Assembly (NCBI RefSeq): GCF_024223415.1
Contig: NZ_CP100500.1
Source of the DNA: Escherichia coli
GTDB taxonomy: Bacteria > Pseudomonadota > Gammaproteobacteria > Enterobacterales > Enterobacteriaceae
DNA: 64,000 nucleotides
Reading direction: 5' to 3' (one strand)
Numbering within the stretch: position 1 is the first letter of the stretch; each line of letters starts with the position of its first letter. The notes under the pieces are model-generated. The model ran no database searches and was not told where the DNA came from. It was given only the letters and a program-made list of their open reading frames with translations. Shown piece after piece: positions 614 through 12,813 of the stretch. The translations under genes were made by a program, and so were the position numbers.

Positions 614-1357
614 TTAAGATGAAGCGTTCGCTATCTGAGCGTCGCTGAATGTGAAACCCGCCTGTTTAAGACGCTGGATTAAGCGGGGTACTGTCTCCCG
701 AACATGGTCATTAAAGTTGAGATAAAGAATACCGGCGGCATCAGAAGGCTGCTCAAGGTGTTGTTTCTGCAGGATGACCACGTTACTGCGACCGAGTGAA
801 GATAACAGCATCCCCATTTCTAAAACTACGTTTTGGCGTGCCCTGGGCTGGGCTGCTTCCTGGCCGTCTCTTTTGGCGTATCCCACATCATCGGGAGTGA
901 GGAGAACAATGCCGAAACGCGTCGCTGTCCGTCCCTGACCAATTTCACGTTCAAGCTCTTCAATTATCGTAAGCCCGGTCCCACCGGTATTCTGCAAAAT
1001 AAAATGGTCAGGTAATCCAAGCTTATGAAGAATAAGTTCAAGCTGCTCTTTTGCTACATGATCGTGACCGTGAACGATGAAAATCTTTTTTGCTGGTTCT
1101 TGCATCATGACTGGAGCGTTACCCAGGTGTTCATTAATAATGGCTTCAACCTCAGGTTTTGCCGCTTGTGAACCCTGAATCAAAATCGTTCCGGTGTGGT
1201 AAAGCGTTATGATGGCACCATTACTTAAACGATAACAATCATGACCGGTTTTGTTTTCTTCTCCGGTAACATCAAATCCGGATTCGACTAAAAATTGACG
1301 AAAAGTATCGACAGCGTATGGGTATTTGAGTGCCATTTCATTGAGTTCCTGCATCAT
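614..1357 (-). CDS. Two-domain protein: unknown ~85-aa N-terminal domain plus C-terminal TIR-like domain (FIVHGHD ... LLTPDDVG ... RARQNVVLEMG ... LGR motifs, as in the CAP12/PycTIR-type TIR-like family). Candidate defence/abortive-infection effector
   Basis: 247-aa ORF; motif pattern recalled from the predicted nucleotide-binding TIR-like family; gene is bracketed by an exact 15-bp direct repeat and followed by a hairpin with T-tract. Confidence 0.5.
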   Translation of the reverse strand: MMQELNEMALKYPYAVDTFRQFLVESGFDVTGEENKTGHDCYRLSNGAIITLYHTGTILIQGSQAAKPEVEAIINEHLGNAPVMMQEPAKKIFIVHGHDHVAKEQLELILHKLGLPDHFILQNTGGTGLTIIEELEREIGQGRTATRFGIVLLTPDDVGYAKRDGQEAAQPRARQNVVLEMGMLLSSLGRSNVVILQKQHLEQPSDAAGILYLNFNDHVRETVPRLIQRLKQAGFTFSDAQIANASS

Positions 1358-1410: not shown

Positions 1411-3477
1411 CTAATCTTTTCTGTAACGGTACGCCTCGAATCCTCCGGCGTTTAGTGGAATGCTCGTGGCCCAGTCAGGAACGGTTGCCAGTAACTGGCT
1501 GAGATGTTCTGCTGAGTAATCGGGTGAGTCAGGGGCCTCACTTATAATTTCATCGTGTACCGTCAGCACAATGCTGTAACCGGCATCTTCGATAAGCGGC
1601 ATGTTTCCGGCCAGAACGTCGCGGGCGGCCGCCTGGGTGACGTTCTCCACCAGCTTTCCGCCGTAGGTTTTGAGTCGTTGCCATTTACGCGAATAAGAGT
1701 TAACACCCATATAGGTGATATCCCCTTTTTCGATAACCGGAGACGGGTAGCATACAGCGCGTCCGGATGGTAGCTGTATGCGCAGCCACGCGCCATCGCG
1801 GCGGATTTTAAGATAACCGCAATACAATGTTTTTTGCGGTGTGGCGATTGCAGTGCGGACGGTGCGCTCCAGTTCGTACCAGAAATCGCAGGTCGCCGGG
1901 TGCGCCCTGCGCCACAGGCGCTTGAGCGAGTCACATGCGATGAATACACGCTCGGACAGGCCAAAGGTCGACTTACGTTTAACCGATTCGTCGTACCAGC
2001 TTTTCGCCTCGCGGATAACATCGCGGGGAATGTTTGGCAGTGCGGCGTTCGCCAGCTCGTCGAGATCGAGACCGTAAACCAGAGCAAAAGTGATGAAAGC
2101 CGATACACCACCTCCATAACCCAGACCGAGTTCCATGACTTTACCGATCTGACGCATGTGTTTATCAACATCATCTGGTGCAATATCGAAAGCTTTTGCA
2201 TACGCCAGTTTATATAAGTCCGGACCCGTTCCGGCGTCGTACTCTCTGAATGCATTCAGTTTCCATTCTTCTCCCGCCAGCCATGCCAGCATACGGCCTT
2301 CAATGTTCGACAAGTCACTTACCACCAGTTTTTTGCCTGTTGGCGCGATAATGCAGCCACGTAACGCTGAACTGGTTAGTTCCATGATATTGTCAAACAG
2401 CAGGTCTGCACATCCGGCTTTCAGTGCTTCGATGCCTTCGTCTATTTGTTCCTGTTTTAGTGAAGGGCGGGGAAGGTTCTGGGGCTGGAATAGCCGTCCG
2501 GCCCAACGACCGGTACGTGACGCCCCGCAGAACTGTAGCGTACCGCGTAAGCGCCCGTCGTGGCTTACGCCTTTCATCAGTGCCTTGTATTTACTGGTGC
2601 TGGTAGTACTGGCCTGCAGGCGGATAGCCAGCAGTTCTTTCACGGCAGATGGTAAATTGGGGTCGGCAATACGACGTTCCAGAGTACTGCGTTGCATGTC
2701 TGGTAGCTCCACACCGTAGGATTCAACAATGTGCTTAATCAACGCGTCCCGTTGTGTGGCTGCCTGCACTTCGCCATCAGTCATTTCCTGTGTACGCTTT
2801 GCCAGGCGCTTTTGCTCCTGGTCTACCGCTTCGATCGCAGCGCGCGCGAGTTGAATGTCCATGCAGACGCCCCGGTCGTTGATCTGCTGATCACGATGCC
2901 AGAGTGCCAGTTCTGTCCCCTGATAATTCCACTTCGGCAGACGTTTATAGACTTCGCGCATTGCCTCGATATCCAGTCCGGCGTAAGCAACAAAGCGCCG
3001 CCATTCTTCCGGGTGGGTTTTGCTGGTGGCCCGGCGCAGTTTGCTGTTTTTCGGGCGTGGTTTGCACAGTAGCTGAATTAGTGACTTGCCTTCTTTATCC
3101 TTCGCTTTGTCCTGCGGGACGCCCAGCACTTCGCAAAGAGCGCCCAGCGCCCCCGGAAGACCATGCGCCAGCGCCTGCACCATTGTGTCGCGCCAGCGTT
3201 CAGTAGCTGGTGACATGTCTGGCATACAATGACGAAGTATCGTGCGGTCAAAGTGCGAATTGTGCGCCCAAACCTCCACATCCGGGTTTTTGAGTGCGAG
3301 ACGTAATTCCGGGGGGATTTTTTCGCCTGCGGTCAGGTCCCACACCTGCACGGGATCGTTATTGATGGCCCAGGCAAAAAGCATAATTTCAGCGCCTTCT
3401 GCATATGCGTGGGTACCGTTTTTTATCGGTATTTCAGAGAAGGTTTCAAGATCGAGCCAGAGAATGTTTGCAGGCAA
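1411..3477 (-). CDS. Phage family-A DNA polymerase with N-terminal DnaQ-like 3'-5' exonuclease
   Basis: 688-aa ORF; exonuclease motif LDLETFS near the N-terminus; polymerase motifs [16 protein letters not shown] (motif B-like K...YG) and VHDEI (motif C-like). Confidence 0.85.
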
Positions 3478-3546
3478 AACAGGACCCTCCGTAAATTAAA
3501 CGGCTACAAAAAGCCCCTGACAGTGCAGGGGCGGGATTGATTTGAA

Positions 3547-4311
3547 TTAACGAGGTAAGGCTGGTGGAATGTATCTGCCGATGCGGTCTTCTATGGTCGG
3601 CAGAATGCACATGCTGTCGCTGAAGCGGTCATGCAACTGGTAAACCAGTTTAGAATCCATTTTTTCGAGAGCAGGCATTAACTGCGCCCGCCAGATTTCG
3701 TTGATGCGCCGGAAGTTATGACAGACGGCGCGGAGATTGTTGATGAACATTTCCTTCTCTGCGTCAGTGACTTCTGTCTGTGTTTTCTGAATACGCTTTG
3801 TGCTGCCATTCCGATAGAAGCGTTCCTGAGCAGCAACAGCCTCATCCACGGTTGGATAGCACCCTACGTAAACGCTCTTCTCTCCGTTCCATGCGTAGGC
3901 TCTGTACGGGTTGTATTTGCTCCGGTGATGGTAAACCATCTTCGGCAGACACTCCCTGTGTGGCGCCAGTATCGTGGAGGATTGCTGGTGCAGTTTGCGT
4001 TCGCACTCGATGAAGTATCGGCGGATCTGGCGGCCTTTTTCGTTGCGCTCCACCATCGCCAGTTCTTTGGCCGTGTCGAGGGTGAGGTGGTAGTCCTTAC
4101 AAAGAACATTTTTACGCTTTCCAGTTTTGGAAAACGTTACGATATAATCCTGATTTTCAACGAATTCATAGTCTGCAATTCGTGATGTAATCCACGCTGC
4201 AAACACTTTCCCTACCCCAAGGAATGCGTGCAGATCGCGAGCATTGCAGAGCAGGGTGGTTTCGTTGGCGATAGCGCCGTTGAAAACGGGGATGAGTTGA
4301 GTTGCCATCAC
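3547..4311 (-). CDS. Protein with AntA/AntB-type antirepressor N-terminal domain
   Basis: 254-aa ORF; N-terminal LIPVFNG ... LHAFLGVGKVFAAWITSRIADYEFVENQDY ... YHLTLDTAKELAMVERNEKGRQIRRYF resembles the AntA/AntB antirepressor domain. Confidence 0.55.
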   Translation of the reverse strand: MMATQLIPVFNGAIANETTLLCNARDLHAFLGVGKVFAAWITSRIADYEFVENQDYIVTFSKTGKRKNVLCKDYHLTLDTAKELAMVERNEKGRQIRRYFIECERKLHQQSSTILAPHRECLPKMVYHHRSKYNPYRAYAWNGEKSVYVGCYPTVDEAVAAQERFYRNGSTKRIQKTQTEVTDAEKEMFINNLRAVCHNFRRINEIWRAQLMPALEKMDSKLVYQLHDRFSDSMCILPTIEDRIGRYIPPALPR

Positions 4312-4469
4312 AGTTACCTCTAACGGTGAAATTCACCGCCACCACTGAGTTGCAAATCTCATATGGGTGGCGAACTGACGAGGTTTGCAATACCGGCGTT
4401 AGAGGAAACCGGCGCGCCGAAGCGCCCCCGCCAGCCCGCCATAATGCGAACGTGGCAAAGCTTGCGACA

Positions 4470-4500
4470 ATAAAAAAGACGCTGGCGCGTCTGGTGTCGC
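4470..4500 (-). terminator. Rho-independent terminator-like hairpin downstream of the DUF2815 gene
   Basis: On the minus strand, AGACGCGCCAGCGTCT hairpin followed by TTTTTTATT (plus-strand aataaaaaagacgctggcgcgtct). Confidence 0.5.
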
Positions 4501-4691
4501 CCCTAACAATTCCGGGTTGCAAATCCCGATCTCCATTTGGGAGATTCGGTGAGCATAAACCGGAAGGGGGCGATGAGTCAATATCGGGGTAGCAGGGCGA
4601 CTGGGTGCTAACCAGAACAATACAGGTAGCTCCGGGCATATTCCCCTTTGCAAAAACACCCGGCGTTTAACCGGGCGTCTGTGAAGCAGGA

Positions 4692-5240
4692 TTAAATCAG
4701 TGCTTCAGCATCAGCACCTTCGCTGATATCGTCGAAATCGTCAGCGCTTGCCACTCCGCCGCCAGCGAATGCATCGCCGTCTCGCAGGAACTGGACTCCG
4801 CCGAGTGAGGCATTAATGCGTTTACCGAAATTATTGTCCTGTGCCCAGATATCGATAACGGCGTTTACATAGCACCCTGCATAGGGACGTCCATCAGCCT
4901 GAGTAAGTGGCGAACGATCGCGATCAAGAACAGCCGGGCGCGCTTTGTTAGCAGCATTCAGGAAGAAATTACCGGGGAAACCTTCATACTCTGCTTTTTC
5001 ATCGCCGTCATGCAGGCACAGATTGAGTTTCTTCTCCAGTTGGTTATAAACAGCCTCCCACTTCTCTCCCCATTTTTCCTTTGCGACCTGCTTCATTGCT
5101 TTACGGATTTCTTCCAGTTGTGGGTGTTCGGGAGACATTAAAAATACAGCGGAGAAACGCGGATCGCCTTCGCCGTTTACAGTTTTAGCTTCAAACAGCG
5201 CAGGAAAAGCCAGACGAACATTGTTCAGCTTCAGTTTCAT
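4692..5240 (-). CDS. DUF2815-type phage protein (putative ssDNA-binding protein of the PolA/DUF2800 replication module)
   Basis: 182-aa ORF starting MKLKLNNVRLAFPALFEAK, acidic C-terminal tail; adjacent to DUF2800-like gene as commonly seen in phages. Confidence 0.55.
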   Translation of the reverse strand: MKLKLNNVRLAFPALFEAKTVNGEGDPRFSAVFLMSPEHPQLEEIRKAMKQVAKEKWGEKWEAVYNQLEKKLNLCLHDGDEKAEYEGFPGNFFLNAANKARPAVLDRDRSPLTQADGRPYAGCYVNAVIDIWAQDNNFGKRINASLGGVQFLRDGDAFAGGGVASADDFDDISEGADAEALI

Positions 5241-5255
5241 TATATGTCTCCTTAA

Positions 5256-6560
5256 TCAGATGAGGTCAGCGGCGAGCGCGTCGTCGGACACGTCATCGAA
5301 ATCATTTACAGGGTTAATATTGAGTGCGGGGCGCGGATCTGAATCAGGAACGACGGTGGGTTTACCGTCCGCTCGTGTTATCAGGGCCTCGACTTTTGGC
5401 CAGCGGCGCGGACTGGCTTTTTTGATGAGTTTTTCTGCTTTGGCAGGGCTAATCAGTTTAAAGTCGAAAACTTCTTCAGTTTTATACCTGAACTGATCCT
5501 TCAGAAGAGCTCGAGCTGCTTCCTCATCACTCCAGGTCCGGTTACCTTGTTTTCCTGTTACCAGTTTAAACCCCGGTACCGTATGCCCGGCATGGAGTTC
5601 ATTGTGAACCCGGTCACGTAGCGCTTTGCAAAAAGACTCAATCAGGTCAACATGGCTGTAAATGTCTGCCAGTTGTTCAGCGGTCAGTAGTGGTACACGC
5701 TTAACGGCATCTGCGAGTTGCTCGCCAACGGGTCTGCTCAGGTCAACGAAGTCGTCCGCAACGGCGTTAAGTCTGGCCTGTGCTTCTGCTGAACACAGCC
5801 CACCTTTTGCTTTACAGAAGAGGCACTGTTTCTCGCCTGGTGTGAAGTTTTCAGGTGGCAGGGTTTCGACGCCTTCGCAATCGGCGATGTTGAACATCAC
5901 GATCACACTGGCGGCAGCTTCCTGCGCCCGTTTGCCGAATGCCTGCAGTTCCTCCACCGTCAGGGACCACTCTGAAACGTGGTTAATCCGCGGCTGGTGG
6001 ATGAACAGGCGCACCGTCTCGAAGTCGTACAGAAGGCTGAACTGCTCGAGCACGCCCAGGGCATACAGCTGCAACTGCTCGTTCTGCTCAGCGTCGACAC
6101 GCACTCCCTTACCGTATTTCAGGTCGTGGATCTGCAGTTCGTTACCCGCGATGATTATGCAGTCGGCAGTTCCGAAAGAGTCTTCCACACCGACGATGTG
6201 GGAGAAGTCTACGCGTTGCTCAACCAGCAGCGTGTTGCCCTGTGCCAGTGACCAGACTGTATCAACATACCGGCCAACGGCTTCGACCATTTCCTCATCC
6301 ACCTGTGGGCCAGATGTATCATCAGGATTTGCGCGAAGGGGGTATGAGCCGAGAAACATAGAAACATTGCATCCGGCGTAGTGTTCCGGGTGACTTTGCC
6401 TGTTTCGCAGGACTTTTTCTGCAAGCGCGTGCGCCGCAGTACCTTCAACAGCAAAGGATGTTTCTTTGTCAGGCTGAGTGGACTCCAGCGCCAGACTGCC
6501 GCTACAACGCATCCATCTGTGGGCGGCTGATGGAGATAATTTTGCATGAACCTCGGGCAT
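5256..6560 (-). CDS. DUF2800-type PD-(D/E)XK nuclease-like phage protein
   Basis: 434-aa ORF; N-terminal [15 protein letters not shown] motif typical of DUF2800; C-terminal cysteines ([11 protein letters not shown]). Confidence 0.6.
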
Positions 6561-8266: not shown

Positions 8267-8893
8267 TTATCTTTTGCGGCGGTAAATACGATGTTCAATC
8301 ATGACCCCTACGATCTGTAAGGGGACATCTGCACTTCGTAGCACGGGATAGTCGGGATTCAGGGGGACCAGTTCAAAATCATCAACGCCGATACCCAACG
8401 GGCGGTATTTTTTGAAAGTGGCCTCATACCCGTTGTTCTTTGCAACGACGAATTCGCCAGGCATGGGGCATAAATCCGGGTCAATTATTACAATATCGCC
8501 TTCCTTAAACTCCGGTTGCATACTGTCACCATCTATCCGCAGGGCGAAGCAGGACTCAGGTACGTCGGAATCCGCGAGAACGTATTCCATATTTCCATCC
8601 ATGTCCGTAGCGTCTTTTGCTTCCGTTAGCGCACCGGCCTGTACGTAACTGAGGATCGGGATGCGGCGGGTACTTATTTCCGCCAGGGGCATTATATTCC
8701 TGCCATTTAAAAGCCAGTCGGGACTGCATTTCAGTGCCTTTGAAAGCTCTATGATGTTGCGGGGCTTCCGGGTCTTTCCGCTTTCAATAGTCTCAATGGA
8801 TTGCTGGCTGACCCCCGCGATTGCTGCAACTTCTGTTTGTGTCATCCCGAGTTCTGTACGGCGTGCTTTAAAGCGTTCTGCAAGTGACATGGT
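8267..8893 (-). CDS. cI: cI-like prophage repressor (XRE-family HTH plus S24 LexA-like peptidase domain)
   Basis: HTH GMTQTEVAAIAGVSQQSIETIESGK and peptidase region LRIDGDSMQPEFKEGDIVIIDP; start taken at MSLAERF (AGGGGG RBS) rather than the ORF-track start at 8956; divergent from the cro-like gene. Confidence 0.85.
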   Translation of the reverse strand, partial: TMSLAERFKARRTELGMTQTEVAAIAGVSQQSIETIESGKTRKPRNIIELSKALKCSPDWLLNGRNIMPLAEISTRRIPILSYVQAGALTEAKDATDMDGNMEYVLADSDVPESCFALRIDGDSMQPEFKEGDIVIIDPDLCPMPGEFVVAKNNGYEATFKKYRPLGIGVDDFELVPLNPDYPVLRSADVPLQIVGVMIEHRIYRRKR

Positions 8894-9006
8894 GTACCCC
8901 CTGATTCCTGATTTTTTGCTCTCCCTTATTAATACAATTTTTGTTGTAGTTGACAAACATCATTTATTGTCGCTAAATACCACATAAATTGTAGGAGACA
9001 ATAATC
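8894..9006. promoter_or_regulatory. Divergent cI/cro intergenic control region (oR/pRM/pR analogue)
   Basis: 113-bp AT-rich spacer between divergent repressor genes containing ACCACA-type half-site repeats (taccacataaattgtagg) also seen left of cI. Confidence 0.5.
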
Positions 9007-9216
9007 ATGACACTTGCTACCCGAGTAAAAAACCAGCGTAAGGCTCTTGGCCTGACGCAGGTTATGCTGGCAGAACGCACAGGGATTAGCCAGCAGGCCA
9101 TTAACCGCATTGAAAGCGGCCTTATATCCCGTCCCCGTTATCTGCTGGAAATAGCTGTTGCCCTGAACTGCGACCCTAACTGGCTGTTGCATGGTACTCC
9201 CGCGGATAAGACGTAA
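9007..9216 (+). CDS. cro: Cro-like HTH repressor
   Basis: 69-aa ORF with XRE HTH (LGLTQVMLAERTGISQQAINRIESG), first rightward gene. Confidence 0.8.
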   Translation: MTLATRVKNQRKALGLTQVMLAERTGISQQAINRIESGLISRPRYLLEIAVALNCDPNWLLHGTPADKT

Positions 9217-9219
9217 CTT

Positions 9220-11364
9220 ATGGCCCAGATCAATCTCTCATACGGCCGGGAACTGGTAGACAACCTTCCTGTGCCCTGTACTGATGCCGATTTTAACCGG
9301 ACATTTAAGCGTGTTAAAAAGTGGGCTCGTGCTATCGGCGCAACCAAACAGGATACAAAAAGCCAGCTTAACGCCAAAAAAGCGCGTCTGCCCTACATCT
9401 GGCACGCAATGAAGGACGTCACCAAAGGTCGTAACGCTGCTAATGCGGGCAACCGTGATGTGCTCTTCATGGATATGGACGGCTGTAACGCGCCTGCATG
9501 GGGCGCTTTACGCGATGCGCTGGCCTGTTTCTCATGTTTCACCTATTCAACGCCAAGTCATCTGCACCCCACTGCAAACGGGGAACATCGCTGGCGTATC
9601 TGCCTGGAGCTGAGTCGCCAGGTCACGCCCGAAGAGTACAAGCGTCTTGGCCTTGCGGTTGAAAACTGGCTGATGGATTGTATCAGCCTGCTGGACGATT
9701 ACACCGTCAAGTGGGACCACAGCGTTTACAACCCGGACCATATGGTTTTTGCCCCTGATGAAAAGGCCATCTTTGAACGTTTTACCGGGGAACCTGTTGA
9801 CGTTGATATCCTGTTGGCCAGCGCACCGGAAGTTACCATCCCTGAAAAAGCATCTTCCACAGACCGCGATGATTTGTCACGCGCTGTCGAACTGAACGGC
9901 ATCAGTCAGGAAACTTTTGACGACCTGCGCGAAGTGATGTGGCATCCGGCTGTACTGGCAGACGCTGAGCCGGGTTGCGGTAAATACCATAGCTGGGCGG
10001 CGATGGGAAATCGTCTGGCATGGTTTAAGGGAACCGACTGGGAAGACGCAGCCCGTCAGCTTTGGGTCGACTGGTCGATAGCGGGTGGTGGCGATGGCAT
10101 CAGCGCTGAACATAAATGGGACAGTAACCAGCTTACCGCCGAACGAACCGGTTACCAGGCCATTTTCGCCCATGCGCAGAAAGCAGGGGTCGCTAACCCC
10201 GCGACCGACCGTATGCGCGGTTTTGTCGCCGGTGCGAATGACTTCGACGAGTTGCCACCGGAAAAACCGGAGCTGCCAAAGTCCAGACCGCACACAGGCG
10301 GCTACGGTAAGCCGGGAAAGTTCATCATTGAAGGGATGGTGCCGCACGGGGTGACCATGCTCTATGGAGCTTCGTCATCGTTCAAATCCTATGGCGTTAT
10401 CTCCATGCTCTGCCGTGTGGCGACGAAAACTCATCGCTGGGGCGGGCGTAACCTCAAAGGTGGCGCTGTTCTGTATGTTGCCGCTGAGGGTGGCAGCTCC
10501 GTTATGCCGCGTGTCGGCGCATGGGCGGATAAGTACAATGACGGTAAGCCACTGGATTTGTTCTACACCCTGCCACTGGCGGTTGATCTCTCTGTCCCCG
10601 CAAACGTCACAAAGATGGTAAACGAGATTAAGCGCATAGCGTACCACACCGGCGAACCTGTCCGGCTTGTGGCCGTCGACACGCTGTCGCAGTCCATGAT
10701 GCAGGGCGAGGAAAACAGCGCCAGTGATGTGGCAAAATTCATGGCGGGCGCAACCAGGGTGTTCACCGAAACGGGCGCAGCGGTGATTATCGTTCACCAC
10801 AGCGGCAAAGACAGCAGTAAGGGGATGCGTGGCTCTTCTGCTGCCTTTGCTAACGCCGATGCGGTCATTCGCGTGGAACGCATCGGCGACGCGGTGAACC
10901 TGATTAACGAGAAACAGCGTACCGGTCCGGTACAGCCGACCCGCGGTTACATGGTACCGACAGTGCAGCTTCCTGACGACGTTATCGCGGCTAACGAAAC
11001 GTACGATGATGAGTATACCAGCACTGAAGGGGAAGTATATGACCCTGTAAGGCTTACCACCGAGCGCGTGTTTGAAGATGCACCAATGGCGGAGATCACC
11101 CCACTGCTGGTGGATAAGGGCGACGGGAATACCAAAGGCAGCAGCGATGAATCCTGGGTATGGGAAAAGCTGGAGGCCTCCGGCGGCAGCATCAACCGTT
11201 CTGCGCTTCGCGAGTTATGGAAGGATGAAACCGATAAAAGTACCGGTCAGTTACGTGCGGTTCTGGGGCGCATGAAAGAGAAGTATTACATCGTTGAGCG
11301 CGACGGCGTAATCAGGGATCCGCTATGCAATGGCGTACCACCTGGAGGGGATGAAATTGCTTAA
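9220..11364 (+). CDS. Replicative primase-helicase (N-terminal primase-like region, C-terminal RecA-fold AAA_25/RepA-like helicase)
   Basis: 714-aa ORF; C-terminal Walker-type region with LVAVDTLSQS and IIVHHSGKD motifs typical of AAA_25/DnaB-like helicases. Confidence 0.7.
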   Translation: MAQINLSYGRELVDNLPVPCTDADFNRTFKRVKKWARAIGATKQDTKSQLNAKKARLPYIWHAMKDVTKGRNAANAGNRDVLFMDMDGCNAPAWGALRDALACFSCFTYSTPSHLHPTANGEHRWRICLELSRQVTPEEYKRLGLAVENWLMDCISLLDDYTVKWDHSVYNPDHMVFAPDEKAIFERFTGEPVDVDILLASAPEVTIPEKASSTDRDDLSRAVELNGISQETFDDLREVMWHPAVLADAEPGCGKYHSWAAMGNRLAWFKGTDWEDAARQLWVDWSIAGGGDGISAEHKWDSNQLTAERTGYQAIFAHAQKAGVANPATDRMRGFVAGANDFDELPPEKPELPKSRPHTGGYGKPGKFIIEGMVPHGVTMLYGASSSFKSYGVISMLCRVATKTHRWGGRNLKGGAVLYVAAEGGSSVMPRVGAWADKYNDGKPLDLFYTLPLAVDLSVPANVTKMVNEIKRIAYHTGEPVRLVAVDTLSQSMMQGEENSASDVAKFMAGATRVFTETGAAVIIVHHSGKDSSKGMRGSSAAFANADAVIRVERIGDAVNLINEKQRTGPVQPTRGYMVPTVQLPDDVIAANETYDDEYTSTEGEVYDPVRLTTERVFEDAPMAEITPLLVDKGDGNTKGSSDESWVWEKLEASGGSINRSALRELWKDETDKSTGQLRAVLGRMKEKYYIVERDGVIRDPLCNGVPPGGDEIA

Positions 11365-11379
11365 TTTTACCAATTTGCA

Positions 11380-11640
11380 GAAAGCTACAAATTTGCATAA
11401 AAATGCAAAAATAAAATATATGCAATTTATTTGCATAAATAGTCAGCGCAACAAAAATTTTAAGCAGCAAGCGCAACACGATGCGCAACAGCGCAACAAA
11501 AAATGTTGCGCCGCTGATTTTAAAGGCTTTTTTAACCGCAACAAGAGCAACACGACGGCTAGCGTAGTGGCGCAACACAATACCCCTCTCCCCCCTTTAG
11601 GGGGGAGGGGTTTGTTGCGCCCGAGCCGTTGCGGTTTTTA
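11380..11640. repeat. Candidate replication origin: AT-rich tract, multiple GCGCAACA iterons (direct and inverted) and a perfect 12-bp-arm palindrome
   Basis: GCGCAACA or its complement TGTTGCGC occurs repeatedly; palindrome cccctctcccccctttaggggggagggg at 11583..11610; TGCATAAA/TTTGCATAAA repeats at 11391..11445. Confidence 0.5.
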
Positions 11641-11687
11641 TTCATTTAAATGCATATGCAATGCTGGTGAATGATAAGGGGGTGCAG

Positions 11688-12386
11688 ATGCTGACAGCAA
11701 TCAACAACGAAAAAATTGTCATCGCAAGGGACGCGCAGAAACCGGGAATTTTCGCCTGCCCGGAATGTGGTGAAGTTGTCACCCTGCGGAAAGGTTCGGT
11801 GAAAGTTCACCATTTCGCCCATCGCAGCACCACATCCTGCGGTTACGGGAAAGGCGAATCTGAGTTGCACATGGATTTGAAAATGCAGGTCTATGACGCG
11901 TTGAACGCGCATCGTGAGGTGGAATATGTTGCGATGGAGGTCGCAGTCGGTGATGTTCGTCCCGATGTGCTGGCGATTATTCGGGGTCAGAAGGTTGCTT
12001 TTGAGATTCAGGTTAGTTCGCTGAGTATTGAAGACCTCTATCGCCGCACGGTTGCGTACGCAGCTCAGGACATTGCGATGATCTGGATCCTGCACTGGCC
12101 TGAAGGTACTGCACTGGACCGGCTTTATCACCCTGCATCATGGGAGCGATGGTTACATACTTGCGGAATGGCAACTCTGTACTTCTGGGCGGGCGATGGC
12201 TGGGTCAGGCCAGTGCGTCTGGGAAACCGACAACATGGATTACAAAGAGCACCTCGTGCCCATCTGGTTGATGATTTCGAACCAAAGCGAACAGGCGGGT
12301 GGATTAAAGGTGATTTTCTGATACCTGCTCGCTTTATCTGGAATCGTGTGCGACGGCAAAAACGTAGAGGTCAGAGCTATGCGTAA
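11688..12386 (+). CDS. CoiA-like protein (competence protein CoiA-like family, predicted nuclease)
   Basis: Start at ATG 11688 (AAGGGGG RBS); N-terminal CPECGEVVTLRKGSVKVHHFAH zinc-finger-like segment typical of the CoiA-like family. Confidence 0.5.
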   Translation: MLTAINNEKIVIARDAQKPGIFACPECGEVVTLRKGSVKVHHFAHRSTTSCGYGKGESELHMDLKMQVYDALNAHREVEYVAMEVAVGDVRPDVLAIIRGQKVAFEIQVSSLSIEDLYRRTVAYAAQDIAMIWILHWPEGTALDRLYHPASWERWLHTCGMATLYFWAGDGWVRPVRLGNRQHGLQRAPRAHLVDDFEPKRTGGWIKGDFLIPARFIWNRVRRQKRRGQSYA

Positions 12387-12813
12387 TATTCAACAGGTTT
12401 TAGAGCGCTGGGGTGGCTGGGCTGCCAATAGCAACACCACAGTGAGCTGGGCTCCAATAGCGGCGGGATTTAAAGGGCTGGTAGTCAGCAGCCTGCCTGG
12501 CAGGCTGAGTTGCTGCGACGACGATGGCCTGATTATCGATGCTTGCGTCTGTCGGCTGCAGCAGGTCCGTAAGCCTGAGGAACTGGACGTCATTATGCTG
12601 TACTACGTCTACGGGTTAAGCAAACGTGAGATAGGACGGCGGCGTCGATGTTCTGAAGGATTTATCCGCCAGCAGTTGCAGGTAGCTGAGGGATTCATTG
12701 AGGGGTGTCTCTGCATGCTGGGTGTGAGCCTTCAGATGGATCCTGAGGTCGAAATTCAAAGGGATGAAAAAAGTATTAGTGCGCTACGCAAAAACTGCGC
12801 TACGCTGGTATGA
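12379..12813 (+). CDS. Q: Late-gene antiterminator Q (phage 21/82-type Q family)
   Basis: Sequence MRNIQQVLERWGGWAA ... resembles lambdoid Q antiterminators; position immediately upstream of the lysis cassette. Confidence 0.7.
   Translation: MRNIQQVLERWGGWAANSNTTVSWAPIAAGFKGLVVSSLPGRLSCCDDDGLIIDACVCRLQQVRKPEELDVIMLYYVYGLSKREIGRRRRCSEGFIRQQLQVAEGFIEGCLCMLGVSLQMDPEVEIQRDEKSISALRKNCATLV

What the first reader, a model, noticed from the sequence alone, without database searches (positions are those of the whole stretch)
11380..11640. Candidate phage origin with GCGCAACA iterons, AT-rich tract and a 12-bp-arm perfect palindrome
Immediately after the primase-helicase gene there is an AT-rich segment with TTTGCATAAA repeats, then a run of GCGCAACA octamers in direct and inverted orientation, then cccctctcccccc-ttta-ggggggagggg. 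This is the arrangement expected for an iteron-type origin located after, rather than within, the initiator gene. The 114-aa ORF 11330..11674 across it is probably not coding.
Basis: seen in the sequence. Interest (0 to 1): 0.45.

Follow-up and report, generated by a model that had tools for sequence, protein, structure and literature searches.

The report
Prophage replication origin with swappable iterons
The non-coding stretch just after a prophage's primase-helicase gene is very probably the phage's replication origin. Its 8-base repeats change in step with the predicted DNA-binding tail of that enzyme across related prophages. The design is already known from phage P4 and pathogenicity islands, seen here with a different helicase type and in an uncharacterised phage group.

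Summary
The repeats, the AT-rich tract and the G/C hairpin are all present. The hairpin is imperfect: 8 perfect pairs, or 11 with a G·T or a 2-nt bulge, not 12 perfect.

Seven of the window's 11 exact GCGCAACA copies lie within 175 bp.

Thirteen related prophage loci keep the same layout:
- AT-rich tract
- direct iterons
- conserved TGATTTTAAAGGnTTTTTT motif
- further iterons
- iteron, bulged G/C hairpin, inverted iteron
- second AT-rich tract

The octamer itself differs between loci: GCGCAACA, GCGGGACA, GCGTGGCA, GCGTGACA, CGGTGACA, GCGTTACA, GCGTAACA or GTGTGCC. It tracks only the last ~90 residues of the primase-helicase, which are predicted to form a winged helix. The helicase core stays up to 98% identical.

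A prediction made from the putative recognition helix was borne out in two loci fetched afterwards. The neighbouring Cro and CoiA genes do not track the octamer.

The 114-aa ORF across the region shows no coding signature, although RefSeq annotates it.

The enzyme is an AEP primase, a RepA-like (AAA_25) helicase and a winged helix. The prophage also encodes a family A DNA polymerase and an SSB.

It is a new variant of the P4 / SaPI-PICI "initiator-helicase plus downstream iterons" design. Interest is moderate.

The parts
9220..11364 (+). Primase-helicase, the putative initiator (714 aa). It has an N-terminal AEP primase-polymerase fold, a helical linker, an AAA_25/RepA-like helicase core and a C-terminal winged helix.
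   Evidence: Pfam AAA_25, residues 368-532, E 3.9e-28. PHROG replicative helicase-primase families. The N-terminal AF2 model matches the cyanophage S-2L PrimPol AEP domain at E 9.8e-5, and also ASFV PrimPol, Prim-PolC and herpesvirus primase. Weak phmmer hit to RSF1010 RepA 1G8Y.
11143..11316 (+). Region of the gene encoding the predicted winged-helix origin-binding domain (aa 642-699). It contains the putative recognition helix ...TGQLRAVLGRMKEK...
   Evidence: AF2 model with H-S-H-H-S-S topology and core pLDDT 85-90. All top Foldseek PDB hits are winged-helix domains, but E is only >= 0.025. This is the only protein segment that varies together with the iteron sequence.
11365..11445 (.). AT-rich tract 1, the candidate DNA-unwinding element. 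It holds two TTTGCATAAA copies and several ATGCAW/WTGCAT hexamers.
   Evidence: GC 22-23%. Among the least stable duplex segments of the window. ATGCAW/WTGCAT occurs 7 times in the 316-bp element against 0.31 expected. Conserved in 9-10 of 13 relatives, short or absent in L006, L135 and L136.
11446..11511 (.). Left iteron set: GCGCAACA direct at 11446, 11471, 11483 and 11491, and inverted at 11504-11511. The last two form the palindrome GCGCAACA-AAAAA-TGTTGCGC.
   Evidence: Homologous positions carry a different octamer in each relative.
11515..11533 (.). Central conserved AT-rich motif TGATTTTAAAGGCTTTTTT. It is either an IHF-like architectural site (A-tract plus WATCAR, read on the - strand) or the central melting site.
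   Evidence: Nearly invariant in 11 of 13 loci even though the iterons differ. L135 has a full WATCAANNNNTTR match at the same place. The TTR element is missing in the window, so the IHF assignment is tentative (consensus from bioRxiv 10.1101/382655).
11536..11552 (+). Two degenerate direct iterons, CCGCAACA and GAGCAACA.
   Evidence: Homologous positions carry the locus-specific core in relatives.
11553..11569 (.). Conserved non-iteron spacer CGACGGCTAGCGTAGTG (family consensus CACGRCWAGCGYAG). Role unknown.
   Evidence: Conserved in 11 of 13 loci.
11569..11621 (.). Composite palindrome: iteron GCGCAACA (11570-11577), bulged G/C hairpin (11583-11610, loop TTTA), inverted iteron (11613-11620).
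   Evidence: ssDNA fold -23.1 kcal/mol, z -6.5 to -6.9. In the 13-sequence alignment, 18 consensus pairs, 9 with compensatory changes. Equivalent hairpins fold at z -4.4 to -8 in all 8 other relatives folded. Flagged as terminator-like, with tail TTTGTTGCGC.
11621..11664 (.). Right flank: conserved CCGAGCC, a partial inverted iteron CGTTGCGG (11627-11634), a T-run and TTATTCATT (11638-11646, a DnaA-box-like position), then ATGCATATGCAATGC (11650-11664).
   Evidence: Conserved blocks. L133 and L142 carry a perfect TTATTCACA at the equivalent position, and four other loci have 8 of 9 matches.
11330..11674 (+). 114-aa ORF across the element, annotated in RefSeq as hypothetical protein WP_029490148.1 from the internal ATG at 11351. 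Judged not coding.
   Evidence: Substitutions against 12 relatives are spread evenly over codon positions, for example 21/13/20, 28/30/33 and 38/42/38. Most indels are not multiples of 3. The frame is cut before the hairpin in L005 and shifted in L006. No Pfam or PHROG family passes threshold.

Best explanation
Window 11365-11664 is the cis-acting replication origin of a lambdoid-type prophage. Its initiator is the primase-helicase encoded immediately upstream (9220-11364).

Proposed mechanism, with each step marked as supported or inferred:
1. The C-terminal winged helix of the primase-helicase reads the 8-bp iterons GCGCAACA. There are about 10 sites in two sets, each set ending in a convergent pair. 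This step is supported by covariation across relatives.
2. Binding of several subunits builds a nucleoprotein complex. The conserved central A/T motif (11515-11533) may help by bending the DNA, possibly through IHF. Inferred.
3. The duplex opens in an adjacent A/T tract. The lowest-stability segment, 11390-11441, abuts the first iteron. The stability figure is computed; the melting itself is inferred.
4. The RepA-like hexameric helicase loads itself, with no O/P-type or DnaC-type loader. Inferred by analogy with P4 alpha and the SaPI Reps.
5. The N-terminal AEP domain lays the first primers. The conserved bulged G/C hairpin between the convergent iterons could form in the unwound strand and act as a loading or priming signal, or as a clamp that limits melting. 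Inferred.
6. The prophage's own family A DNA polymerase, Enc34-type SSB and DUF2800 nuclease, all on the left arm, carry out elongation. The gene content is shown; the roles are inferred.
For: - Clustering is far above chance.
- The architecture is conserved in 13 loci from E. coli, Salmonella, Mixta, Erwinia, Serratia, Xenorhabdus and Arsenophonus, while the octamer is replaced at every position. Each origin has 6-10 copies of its own core and 0-2 of any other.
- The octamer tracks the C-terminal domain (CTD), not overall relatedness. The L134 helicase core is 98% identical to the window's, yet its CTD is 39% identical and its iteron is GCGTGGCA. Arsenophonus L136 is only 64% identical in the core and 30% over the whole CTD, but keeps a similar putative recognition helix (LRTVISRMKK against LRAVLGRMKEK) and keeps GCGCAACA.
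- A forward test worked. CTDs with 'RKEATLRQG' were predicted to differ in iteron from the 'GGKEDTFRR' CTD. L141 and L142 turned out to have (G/T)CGTGACA-type iterons, against GCGGGACA in L133.
- The CTD is predicted to be a winged helix and the N-terminus an AEP primase. The core is an AAA_25/RepA-like helicase.
- Cro does not covary. The window and L142 Cro proteins are 97% identical with different iterons, and L003 and L005 are 92% identical with different iterons. The downstream gene varies: CoiA is present in 7 loci and absent in 6.
- The AT-rich tract next to the iterons is among the least stable DNA in the window.
- The prophage encodes its own polymerase, SSB and nuclease.
- There is experimental precedent for the same layout. 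SaPI Reps have a C-terminal WHD, with 6-12 iterons immediately downstream of rep around an AT-rich centre (PMC9371898). The E. coli PICI pri-rep-ori segment was shown to drive plasmid replication (PMC6092414). The P4 crr, with 8-bp type 1 repeats in both orientations, lies directly 3' of the alpha gene.
Against: - There is no experimental evidence for binding, melting or initiation at this site.
- The winged-helix assignment rests on a model from an 18-sequence alignment, and the Foldseek E-values are weak (0.025 and above).
- The CTD shows no detectable sequence similarity to the P4 alpha origin-binding domain (hhalign probability 0.2%).
- RecA-fold RepA/DnaB-like helicases are not known to me to self-load at duplex origins. 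RSF1010 RepA needs RepC.
- The left AT-rich tract is short or missing in L006, L135 and L136, so which tract melts is open.
- The central motif lacks the TTR element that the IHF literature calls highly conserved.
- The hairpin plus T-rich tail also fits an intrinsic terminator.
- No close relative of the helicase is found on a natural plasmid that would show autonomous function.
Confidence: 0.77

Rival explanations
1. The hairpin and its surroundings are mainly a transcriptional element. They would act as an intrinsic terminator (a tR-like stop) between the early replication gene and the CoiA/Q genes. The repeats would then serve regulation, for example initiator binding that modulates read-through, rather than origin firing.
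For: The scan flags 11585-11610 plus TTTGTTGCGC as terminator-like, and two weaker candidates nearby. The Q antiterminator gene lies downstream. P4 has a terminator, t-alpha, between the alpha gene and crr. Compensatory changes in the stem fit an RNA hairpin as well as a DNA one.
Against: The T-tail is short and is really the spacer plus the start of the inverted iteron. L135 (GAGGGGTGTCACG) and L137 have no T-run at all, yet keep the hairpin between convergent iterons. A terminator does not explain about 10 binding sites that covary with the helicase CTD, the AT-rich tracts or the central conserved motif. The two roles are not mutually exclusive.
Confidence: 0.1
2. The cluster is a replication enhancer like P4 crr, not the start site. 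The initiator binds here, but DNA synthesis starts at a second site elsewhere in the prophage.
For: In P4 the iteron cluster directly 3' of the alpha gene is crr, while ori lies about 4.5 kb away. Both carry the same 8-bp repeats.
Against: No second cluster of GCGCAACA exists in the 64-kb window, either exact or with one mismatch. Outside 11446-11620 the matches are scattered at the chance level, 89 found against 88 expected overall. The element has its own AT-rich tracts.
Confidence: 0.07
3. The 114-aa ORF 11330-11674 (RefSeq WP_029490148.1) is a real gene, and the repeats are a by-product of a repetitive protein.
For: PGAP annotates it. Gene callers also call ORFs here in L134, L136, L138 and L142. 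One frame has few stops in several loci.
Against: There is no excess of third-codon-position substitutions, and most indels are not multiples of 3. The ORF is truncated before the hairpin in L005 and frame-shifted in L006. The iteron swaps would rewrite the protein at every repeat. No family match passes threshold. Repeats occur on both strands.
Confidence: 0.03
4. It is another kind of repeat-plus-bend nucleoprotein site, such as a packaging (cosB-like), partition or recombination site.
For: The same 19-21-bp central motif sits among unrelated repeats next to terminase small-subunit-like ORFs in L016 and L023, in the manner of lambda cosB (the terminase identification is by eye).
Against: In the near-identical prophage in L001 the terminase genes lie about 6.4 kb downstream of the element, and no ParA/ParB genes are present. 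The prophage is integrated and has a tyrosine recombinase at its end. The repeats covary with the helicase CTD.
Confidence: 0.03

Closest known systems
Satellite phage P4: alpha protein with ori and crr
   Same: One polypeptide combines a primase, a helicase and a C-terminal winged-helix origin-binding domain (PMC4234260). The iterons are 8 bp (GGTGAACA/TGTTCACC) in direct and inverted orientation. One cluster (crr) lies immediately 3' of the initiator gene, after a G/C hairpin.
   Different: The P4 primase is Toprim/DnaG-type (PMC4234260) and its helicase is SF3 (from my own knowledge). Here the primase is an AEP fold and the helicase is AAA_25/RepA-like. P4 needs two separated cis sites, and only one cluster is found here. 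The CTDs show no detectable similarity. Here the hairpin sits inside the iteron array, between convergent iterons.
SaPI / PICI Rep-ori replicons (Staphylococcus SaPIs; E. coli EcCICFT073)
   Same: Both have a self-loading helicase with a C-terminal winged-helix domain that recognises short iterons. The iterons lie immediately downstream of the rep ORF, in two sets around an AT-rich centre with opposed orientations. There are several allelic Rep/iteron specificities (PMC9371898; PMC6092414).
   Different: SaPI Reps belong to the AAA+ helicases (superfamily III / MCM-like, PMC9371898). This one is a RecA-fold RepA-like helicase fused to an AEP primase. The iterons are 8 bp rather than 5-6 bp. 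There is an extra conserved bulged G/C hairpin and an IHF-like motif. The host element is a full-size lambdoid prophage with its own DNA polymerase, not a satellite.
RSF1010 (IncQ) oriV with RepA/RepB'/RepC
   Same: Both use a RepA-family helicase (weak hit to 1G8Y) and a plasmid-type primase. The origin consists of iterons, an A/T tract and a G/C segment, with hairpins (ssiA/ssiB) in a palindromic arrangement that act as priming signals (PMC4234260).
   Different: In RSF1010 the three activities are separate proteins, and iteron binding is by RepC. Here they are fused, with a winged-helix tail. A priming role for the hairpin here is only an analogy.
pRN1 ORF904 and Bordetella phage BIP-1-type replication proteins
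   Same: Both combine an AEP prim-pol, a helicase and a C-terminal winged helix. The cis element lies just downstream of the gene, and a stem-loop is needed for replication (PMC4234260).
   Different: pRN1 has an SF3 helicase and a 100-nt stem-loop without iterons. Here an iteron array dominates and the hairpin is 28 nt.
Lambda-type ori (O/P system)
   Same: The prophage context is lambdoid (cI, cro, Q, lysis genes and lambda-like head genes). Iteron specificity is exchanged as a module together with the initiator's DNA-binding domain. By my recollection, lambda ori also has iterons, an A/T tract and a palindrome.
   Different: Lambda ori lies inside the O gene and uses host DnaB, recruited by P. 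Here there is no O or P, the origin is intergenic, and the helicase and primase are phage-encoded.

Membership tests
Iteron-type replication origin | Cluster of several copies of one short motif, beyond chance | tested here: met
   7 exact and 3 degenerate copies in 190 bp. The whole 64-kb window is expected to hold 4.3 copies.
Iteron-type replication origin | Adjacent A/T-rich, easily melted segment | tested here: met
   22% GC at 11365-11445. The 30-mer at 11412-11441 is more than 3 SD less stable than the window mean.
Iteron-type replication origin | Iterons are the binding sites of a cognate initiator encoded nearby, so that specificity covaries | tested here: met
   Eight iteron classes in 13 loci track the C-terminal domain of the adjacent primase-helicase and nothing else. 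One forward prediction was confirmed. Physical binding was not tested.
Iteron-type replication origin | Segment supports initiator-dependent replication in vivo or in vitro | not testable with these tools
   Needs a cloning and replication assay.
SaPI/PICI-type Rep-ori (self-loading helicase initiator) | Iterons immediately downstream of the rep ORF, in two sets around an AT-rich centre, with opposed orientations | tested here: met
   The first iteron is 82 bp after the stop codon. The two sets, 11446-11511 and 11536-11634, flank the A/T motif at 11515-11533, and each set ends in a convergent pair.
SaPI/PICI-type Rep-ori (self-loading helicase initiator) | C-terminal winged-helix domain on the helicase | tested here: met
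   AF2 model topology H-S-H-H-S-S with core pLDDT 85-90. Top PDB fold hits are all WH domains, though with weak E-values.
SaPI/PICI-type Rep-ori (self-loading helicase initiator) | Helicase of the AAA+ SF3/MCM-like class | tested here: not met
   Pfam AAA_25 and a weak match to RSF1010 RepA, a RecA-fold hexameric helicase. It is therefore not a member by descent, only by design.
P4 alpha / ori-crr system | 8-bp iterons in both orientations, bound by the C-terminal domain of a primase-helicase; a cluster directly 3' of the gene | tested here: met
   Window. The P4 record and sequence were read.
P4 alpha / ori-crr system | Homology of the initiator (Toprim primase, SF3 helicase, alpha origin-binding domain) | tested here: not met
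   The N-terminus has an AEP fold. The helicase is AAA_25. The CTD profile against the P4 alpha C-terminus gives hhalign probability 0.2%.
P4 alpha / ori-crr system | Two separated cis sites (ori and crr) | tested here: not met
   There is no second cluster in the 64-kb window.
IHF binding site (central motif 11515-11533, read on the - strand) | WATCAR core | tested here: met
   AATCAG in the window, and AATCAA in most relatives. Consensus taken from bioRxiv 10.1101/382655.
IHF binding site (central motif 11515-11533, read on the - strand) | TTR element 4 nt after the core | tested here: not met
   The window has GCA at that position. Only L135 has the full WATCAANNNNTTR consensus.
IHF binding site (central motif 11515-11533, read on the - strand) | A-tract of 4-6 A in the other half-site (optional feature) | tested here: met
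   AAAAAA lies 8-9 nt before the ATCA. By my recollection this is the same register as lambda H'; that comparison was not verified here.
Intrinsic (rho-independent) terminator | G/C-rich stem-loop followed directly by a U-run | tested here: inconclusive
   The window passes the scan with 11 pairs and tail TTTGTTGC. However, L135 and L137 keep the hairpin without any T-run.
Protein-coding gene (ORF 11330-11674) | Reading frame and codon-position pattern conserved among relatives | tested here: not met

The most novel reading that the evidence does not exclude
A RecA-fold (RepA/DnaB-like) helicase fused to an AEP primase may act as a fully self-contained, self-loading origin-binding initiator in lambdoid phages. 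To my knowledge that role has so far been documented for AAA+/SF3-type helicases such as P4 alpha, the SaPI Reps, SV40 T antigen and papillomavirus E1. The winged-helix tail would read a simple, naturally permuted 8-bp code of the form GCGnnACA. The conserved bulged G/C hairpin held between two convergent iterons would be the structure on which the ring is loaded or the first primer laid. The eight natural CTD/iteron pairs would then form a ready-made set of orthogonal replicons and a small protein-DNA recognition code.
Probability: 0.35. Interest if true: 0.6.

Novelty: new variant of a known kind. Interest (0 to 1): 0.4.

Why it matters
- It assigns a function to a stretch that RefSeq annotates as a hypothetical protein. 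It also defines the origin of an uncharacterised replication module (AEP primase, RepA-like helicase, winged helix, plus phage Pol A, SSB and nuclease). At least about 100 distinct homologues of the enzyme were found, mostly in Salmonella and also in E. coli, Klebsiella, Serratia, Xenorhabdus, Arsenophonus and Sodalis.
- The natural series of matched C-terminal domains and octamers gives a clean system for studying how a winged helix reads DNA and how phage replicons avoid cross-talk. In some pairs the helicase core is 96-98% identical.
- The series could supply orthogonal, host-factor-light replicons for engineering.
- If self-loading of a RecA-fold helicase were shown, it would widen the known ways of starting replication.

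Tried and rejected
- DNA similarity to sequenced phages found no match (blastn). Only 1 of 5426 complete E. coli genomes carries the segment.
- Rfam gave only a sub-threshold SprD hit, 21 bits against a gathering score of 100, judged to be chance.
- The sigma-70 promoter scan found nothing in 11000-12000.
- The species-representative genome scan gave only 3 loci, from Mixta and Erwinia. I therefore used the protein database plus contig look-ups instead.
- The plasmid collection held only distant helicase hits, at most 38% identity, so there is no natural-plasmid evidence.
- The pattern scan for the central motif was mostly chance hits, because the motif is AT-rich. The few hits with repeats turned out to lie next to terminase-like genes in L016 and L023, so I dropped the idea that they are further origins of this type.
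- Homology of the CTD to the P4 alpha origin-binding domain was not supported.
- Cro/CI as the iteron binder was rejected.
- A DnaA-box reading of TTTGCATAA (reverse complement TTATGCAAA, one mismatch) was judged too weak in AT-rich DNA to claim.
- Literature searches for the motif strings found nothing relevant.
Full report
**1. What is in the sequence**

The window carries a lambdoid-type prophage early-right region:
- cI-like repressor, 8267-8956 (-)
- cro-like gene, 9007-9216 (+)
- a 714-aa AAA_25 protein, 9220-11364 (+)
- a CoiA-like nuclease gene, 11661/11688-12386 (+)
- a Q antiterminator, 12346-12813 (+)
- lysis genes after that

Between the 714-aa gene and CoiA lie about 300 bp.
- There is an AT-rich tract at 11365-11445, 22-23% GC, with two exact TTTGCATAAA copies.
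- There are five direct and two inverted exact GCGCAACA octamers between 11446 and 11620.
- The G/C hairpin lies at 11583-11610.

The octamer cluster is far beyond chance. The whole 64-kb window holds 11 exact copies, 7 of them within 175 bp, against 4.3 +/- 1.8 expected for the entire window. With one mismatch allowed, no other cluster appears anywhere in the window.

The one inaccurate detail is the palindrome. The arms are 13 and 11 nt. They give 8 perfect pairs, or 11 with a G·T or a 2-nt bulge, not 12 perfect pairs.

- The hairpin is flanked by a convergent pair of iterons, forming a 53-nt composite palindrome at 11569-11621.
- A further motif, TGATTTTAAAGGCTTTTTT (11515-11533), sits between two iteron sets.
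- The element continues to about 11664.

**2. Occurrence**

The segment has no DNA match in 50,697 phage records. It occurs in a single complete E. coli genome of 5,426, strain F1022.

In F1022 the prophage also encodes, on its left arm:
- a tyrosine integrase
- a DEAD/DEAH helicase
- a family A DNA polymerase
- a DUF2815/Enc34-type SSB
- a DUF2800 PD-(D/E)XK nuclease
- a VRR-NUC protein

It also has lambda-like head genes. The polymerase, SSB and DUF2800 nuclease were confirmed in the window itself.

RefSeq annotates a hypothetical protein (WP_029490148.1) across the repeats.

**3. Comparative test**

Homologues of the 714-aa protein were collected from IMG/VR, species-representative genomes and the large protein database. 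The last gave 102 full-length AAA_25 homologues, mostly from Salmonella, and also from E. coli, Klebsiella, Serratia, Xenorhabdus, Arsenophonus and Symbiopectobacterium.

Their last ~95 residues fall into about 10 classes. I fetched DNA for one or two members of each class.

In 13 loci the stretch after the stop codon has the same architecture:
- an A/T tract, usually present
- three or four direct iterons
- often an inverted iterons copy
- the TGATTTTAAAGGnTTTTTT motif
- two more iterons
- a conserved spacer, CACGRCWAGCGYAG
- iteron, G/C hairpin, inverted iteron
- YCRAGCCG and a partial inverted iteron
- a T-run, then TTATTCA..ATGCATATGCAATGC

The octamer itself differs between loci:

| Iteron | Loci |
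|---|---|
| GCGCAACA | window, L003, L136 |
| GCGGGACA | L005, L133 |
| GCGTGGCA | L134 |
| GCGTGACA / GTGTGACA | L141, L142, L135 |
| CGGTGACA | L138 |
| GCGTTACA | L139 |
| GCGTAACA | L137 |
| GTGTGCC(A/C) | L006 |

Each origin has 6-10 copies of its own core and 0-2 of any other.

In a fourteenth locus, from Symbiopectobacterium (L140), IS elements replace the element.

**4. What the octamer covaries with**

The helicase core is highly conserved. L134, L141 and L138 are 96-98% identical to the window there, yet their C-terminal ~80 residues are only 32-39% identical and their iterons differ.

L003 keeps 74% identity in the tail and keeps the same iteron. Arsenophonus L136 is only 64% identical in the core and 30% over the whole tail, but has a similar putative recognition helix (LRTVISRMKK against LRAVLGRMKEK) and keeps GCGCAACA.

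Within one single-linkage tail cluster, P0022 carries 'GGKEDTFRR', like the L005 class, while P0021 and P0024 carry 'RKEATLRQG'. I predicted that their iterons would differ. They do: GCGGGACA in L133 against GCGTGACA and GTGTGACA in L141 and L142.

Cro does not covary. The window and L142 Cro proteins are 97% identical with different iterons, and L003 and L005 are 92% identical with different iterons.

The downstream gene is not constant either. CoiA is present in 7 loci and absent in 6.

The only consistent partner of the repeats is therefore the tail of the adjacent protein.

**5. The protein**

- Pfam finds AAA_25 at residues 368-532. PHROGs finds helicase-primase families. phmmer against the PDB finds only a weak match to RSF1010 RepA.
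- An AF2 model of the last 94 residues has helix-strand-helix-helix-strand-strand topology with core pLDDT 85-90. All of its best PDB matches are winged-helix domains: APC2 WHB, the MCM C-terminal WH, MarR, DtxR and BlaI. E-values are weak, at 0.025 and above.
- An AF2 model of residues 1-340 matches AEP primase-polymerases. The cyanophage S-2L PrimPol AEP domain scores E 9.8e-5, and ASFV PrimPol, Prim-PolC, herpesvirus primase and LigD-pol also match. The invariant D85/D87 and H114/H116 are compatible with AEP catalytic motifs, which is my own reading.

The protein is therefore an AEP primase, a RepA-like helicase and a winged helix.

**6. The ORF across the element is not a gene**

Against 12 relatives, substitutions fall evenly on the three codon positions, for example 21/13/20, 28/30/33 and 38/42/38. 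Most indels are not multiples of three.

The frame ends before the hairpin in L005 and shifts in L006. One database entry (P0073, 820 aa) is the helicase fused to this frame, presumably a frameshift or gene-calling artefact.

**7. The hairpin**

RNAalifold on the 13 sequences gives 18 pairs, 9 of them with compensatory double changes.

The outer 7 pairs are simply the convergent iterons. The inner G/C stem also covaries:
- CTCTCC/GGAG (window)
- CACACC/GGTG
- CTCTCA/TGAG
- CTATAC/GTAG
- CTC/GAG

As single-stranded DNA the composite hairpins fold at -14 to -27 kcal/mol, with z from -4.4 to -8. In the main group the 5' arm carries 1-3 unpaired nucleotides, while L135 folds without a bulge in the G/C stem. 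Such an asymmetry is hard to explain by a symmetric duplex binding site, so it points to a structure formed in a single strand of DNA or RNA.

A terminator role is possible in the window, given the tail TTTGTT. But L135 and L137 lack any T-run. I therefore rate 'terminator only' as unlikely and 'also a terminator' as open.

**8. The central motif**

Read on the minus strand it is AAAAAAGCCTTTAAAATCAG. That is an A-tract followed, 8-9 nt later, by WATCAR. These are two of the three elements of an IHF site (consensus and A-tract description from bioRxiv 10.1101/382655).

The TTR element is absent in the window. Only L135 has a complete consensus.

The same motif turned up among unrelated repeats in several IMG/VR contigs. 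In L016 and L023 those repeats lie next to terminase small-subunit-like ORFs, identified by eye, which recalls lambda cosB. A shared architectural host factor fits this pattern, but the assignment remains tentative. The alternative is that this is the central melting site, as in SaPI origins.

**9. Mechanism proposed**

The winged-helix tails bind the iterons. This step is supported by covariation. A multimeric complex forms, possibly bent at the central motif. An adjacent A/T tract opens, the least stable being 11390-11441 next to the first iteron.

The RepA-like ring then loads itself, the AEP domain primes, and the phage polymerase, SSB and nuclease take over. The steps after binding are inferred by analogy.

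**10. Comparison with known systems**

The design is known: an initiator-helicase with a winged-helix tail, and short iterons directly downstream of its gene around an A/T centre.
- SaPI Reps (PMC9371898).
- E. coli PICIs, where pri-rep-ori was shown to drive plasmid replication (PMC6092414).
- P4, whose crr lies directly 3' of the alpha gene after a terminator hairpin. It has 8-bp repeats GGTGAACA/TGTTCACC in both orientations, read directly.
- pRN1 and BIP-1-type proteins, which combine AEP, helicase and WH with a required downstream stem-loop. RSF1010 uses iterons plus hairpin priming signals (PMC4234260).

The differences here are:
- the helicase class, AAA_25/RecA-fold rather than SF3/AAA+
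- the AEP rather than Toprim primase
- a single cis site
- no detectable CTD similarity to P4 alpha
- the bulged hairpin embedded between convergent iterons
- the IHF-like motif
- the host element, a full lambdoid prophage with its own polymerase

No isolated phage in the collection has this helicase full-length; APSE phages share only the N-terminal half. No plasmid has a close relative.

**11. Verdict**

The origin interpretation is supported by strong comparative evidence but is untested experimentally.

It is a new variant of a known kind of origin. Interest is moderate. The result is not surprising in principle, but it offers an unusually clean natural specificity series and a possible case of a self-loading RecA-fold helicase.

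Noticed in passing
L008:6220-6400 and L009:6230-6440: Relatives share the N-terminal AEP half but carry a VapE-type C-terminal half, like APSE phage P3. They too have iteron arrays starting at or just after their stop codon: CGTCCCAAC about 5 times plus an ATATATATA tract in L008, and GTTACCACC 6 or more times plus ATATATAT in L009. The 'origin after the initiator gene' layout thus seems general for this wider group.
   Followed up: partly
L016:4480-4780, L110, L023, L034:12600-12900, L062, L067: The 19-21-bp motif (c)ATTGATTTYAAAGGnTTTTTT occurs inside clusters of unrelated short repeats in diverse IMG/VR contigs: ACGTCAA x9, TTTCGGG x10, GGTAAT/CC and TGTGCAAA. In L016 and L023 the cluster sits next to an ORF that looks like a terminase small subunit (judged by eye), which suggests cosB-like packaging sites. 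L016 also has a CCCCCCtataaGGGGGGG hairpin. This may be a widely used high-affinity architectural (IHF-type) site.
   Followed up: partly
window 614-1357 (-): A 247-aa ORF with a CAP12/Pycsar-effector TIR domain (Pfam PF10137, E 5.6e-31) lies at the left end of the prophage early region. It is a candidate prophage-borne anti-phage defence gene.
   Followed up: no
window 1411-6560 (-): The prophage left arm encodes its own replication proteins: a family A DNA polymerase (1411-3477), an Enc34-type ssDNA-binding protein (4692-5240) and a DUF2800/PD-(D/E)XK nuclease (5256-6560). An AntA-like antirepressor lies at 3547-4311. This is unusual for a lambda-like prophage, which normally relies on the host replisome.
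   Followed up: partly
window 11638-11646; L133:4883-4891; L142:4923-4931: At a conserved position right of the iterons, L133 and L142 carry a perfect DnaA-box consensus, TTATTCACA. Four other loci have 8 of 9 matches and the window has 7 of 9 (TTATTCATT). The TTTGCATAA repeats (reverse complement TTATGCAAA) are also one mismatch from the consensus. A role for host DnaA was not assessed further.
   Followed up: partly
window 11390-11440 and 11650-11664: The hexamer ATGCAW/WTGCAT occurs 7 times in the 316-bp element, against 0.31 expected. It is conserved in most relatives on both flanks of the iteron array and absent in L135 and L137. This second repeat family has no known binder.
   Followed up: partly
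window 11553-11569 and 11621-11627: Two non-iteron blocks are conserved across loci with different iterons: CACGRCWAGCGYAG and YCRAGCCG. They are partly complementary to each other (ACGGCT / AGCCGT in the window), which extends the palindrome. Function unknown.
   Followed up: no
L001:15052-15375 (= window 11351-11674); protein P0073: RefSeq/PGAP annotates the origin as a hypothetical protein (WP_029490148.1). One database protein of 820 aa is the helicase fused in frame to this spurious ORF. Both look like annotation artefacts that propagate through databases.
   Followed up: yes
L140:4651-6830: In Candidatus Symbiopectobacterium the homologous helicase gene is followed directly by two IS/transposase genes instead of the origin. 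This suggests a decaying prophage in a symbiont genome.
   Followed up: no
window 11688-12386 (+): A CoiA-like gene (CoiA_N plus CoiA nuclease domains) follows the origin in 7 of 13 loci and is absent in the others. Its role in a prophage early operon is unknown.
   Followed up: no
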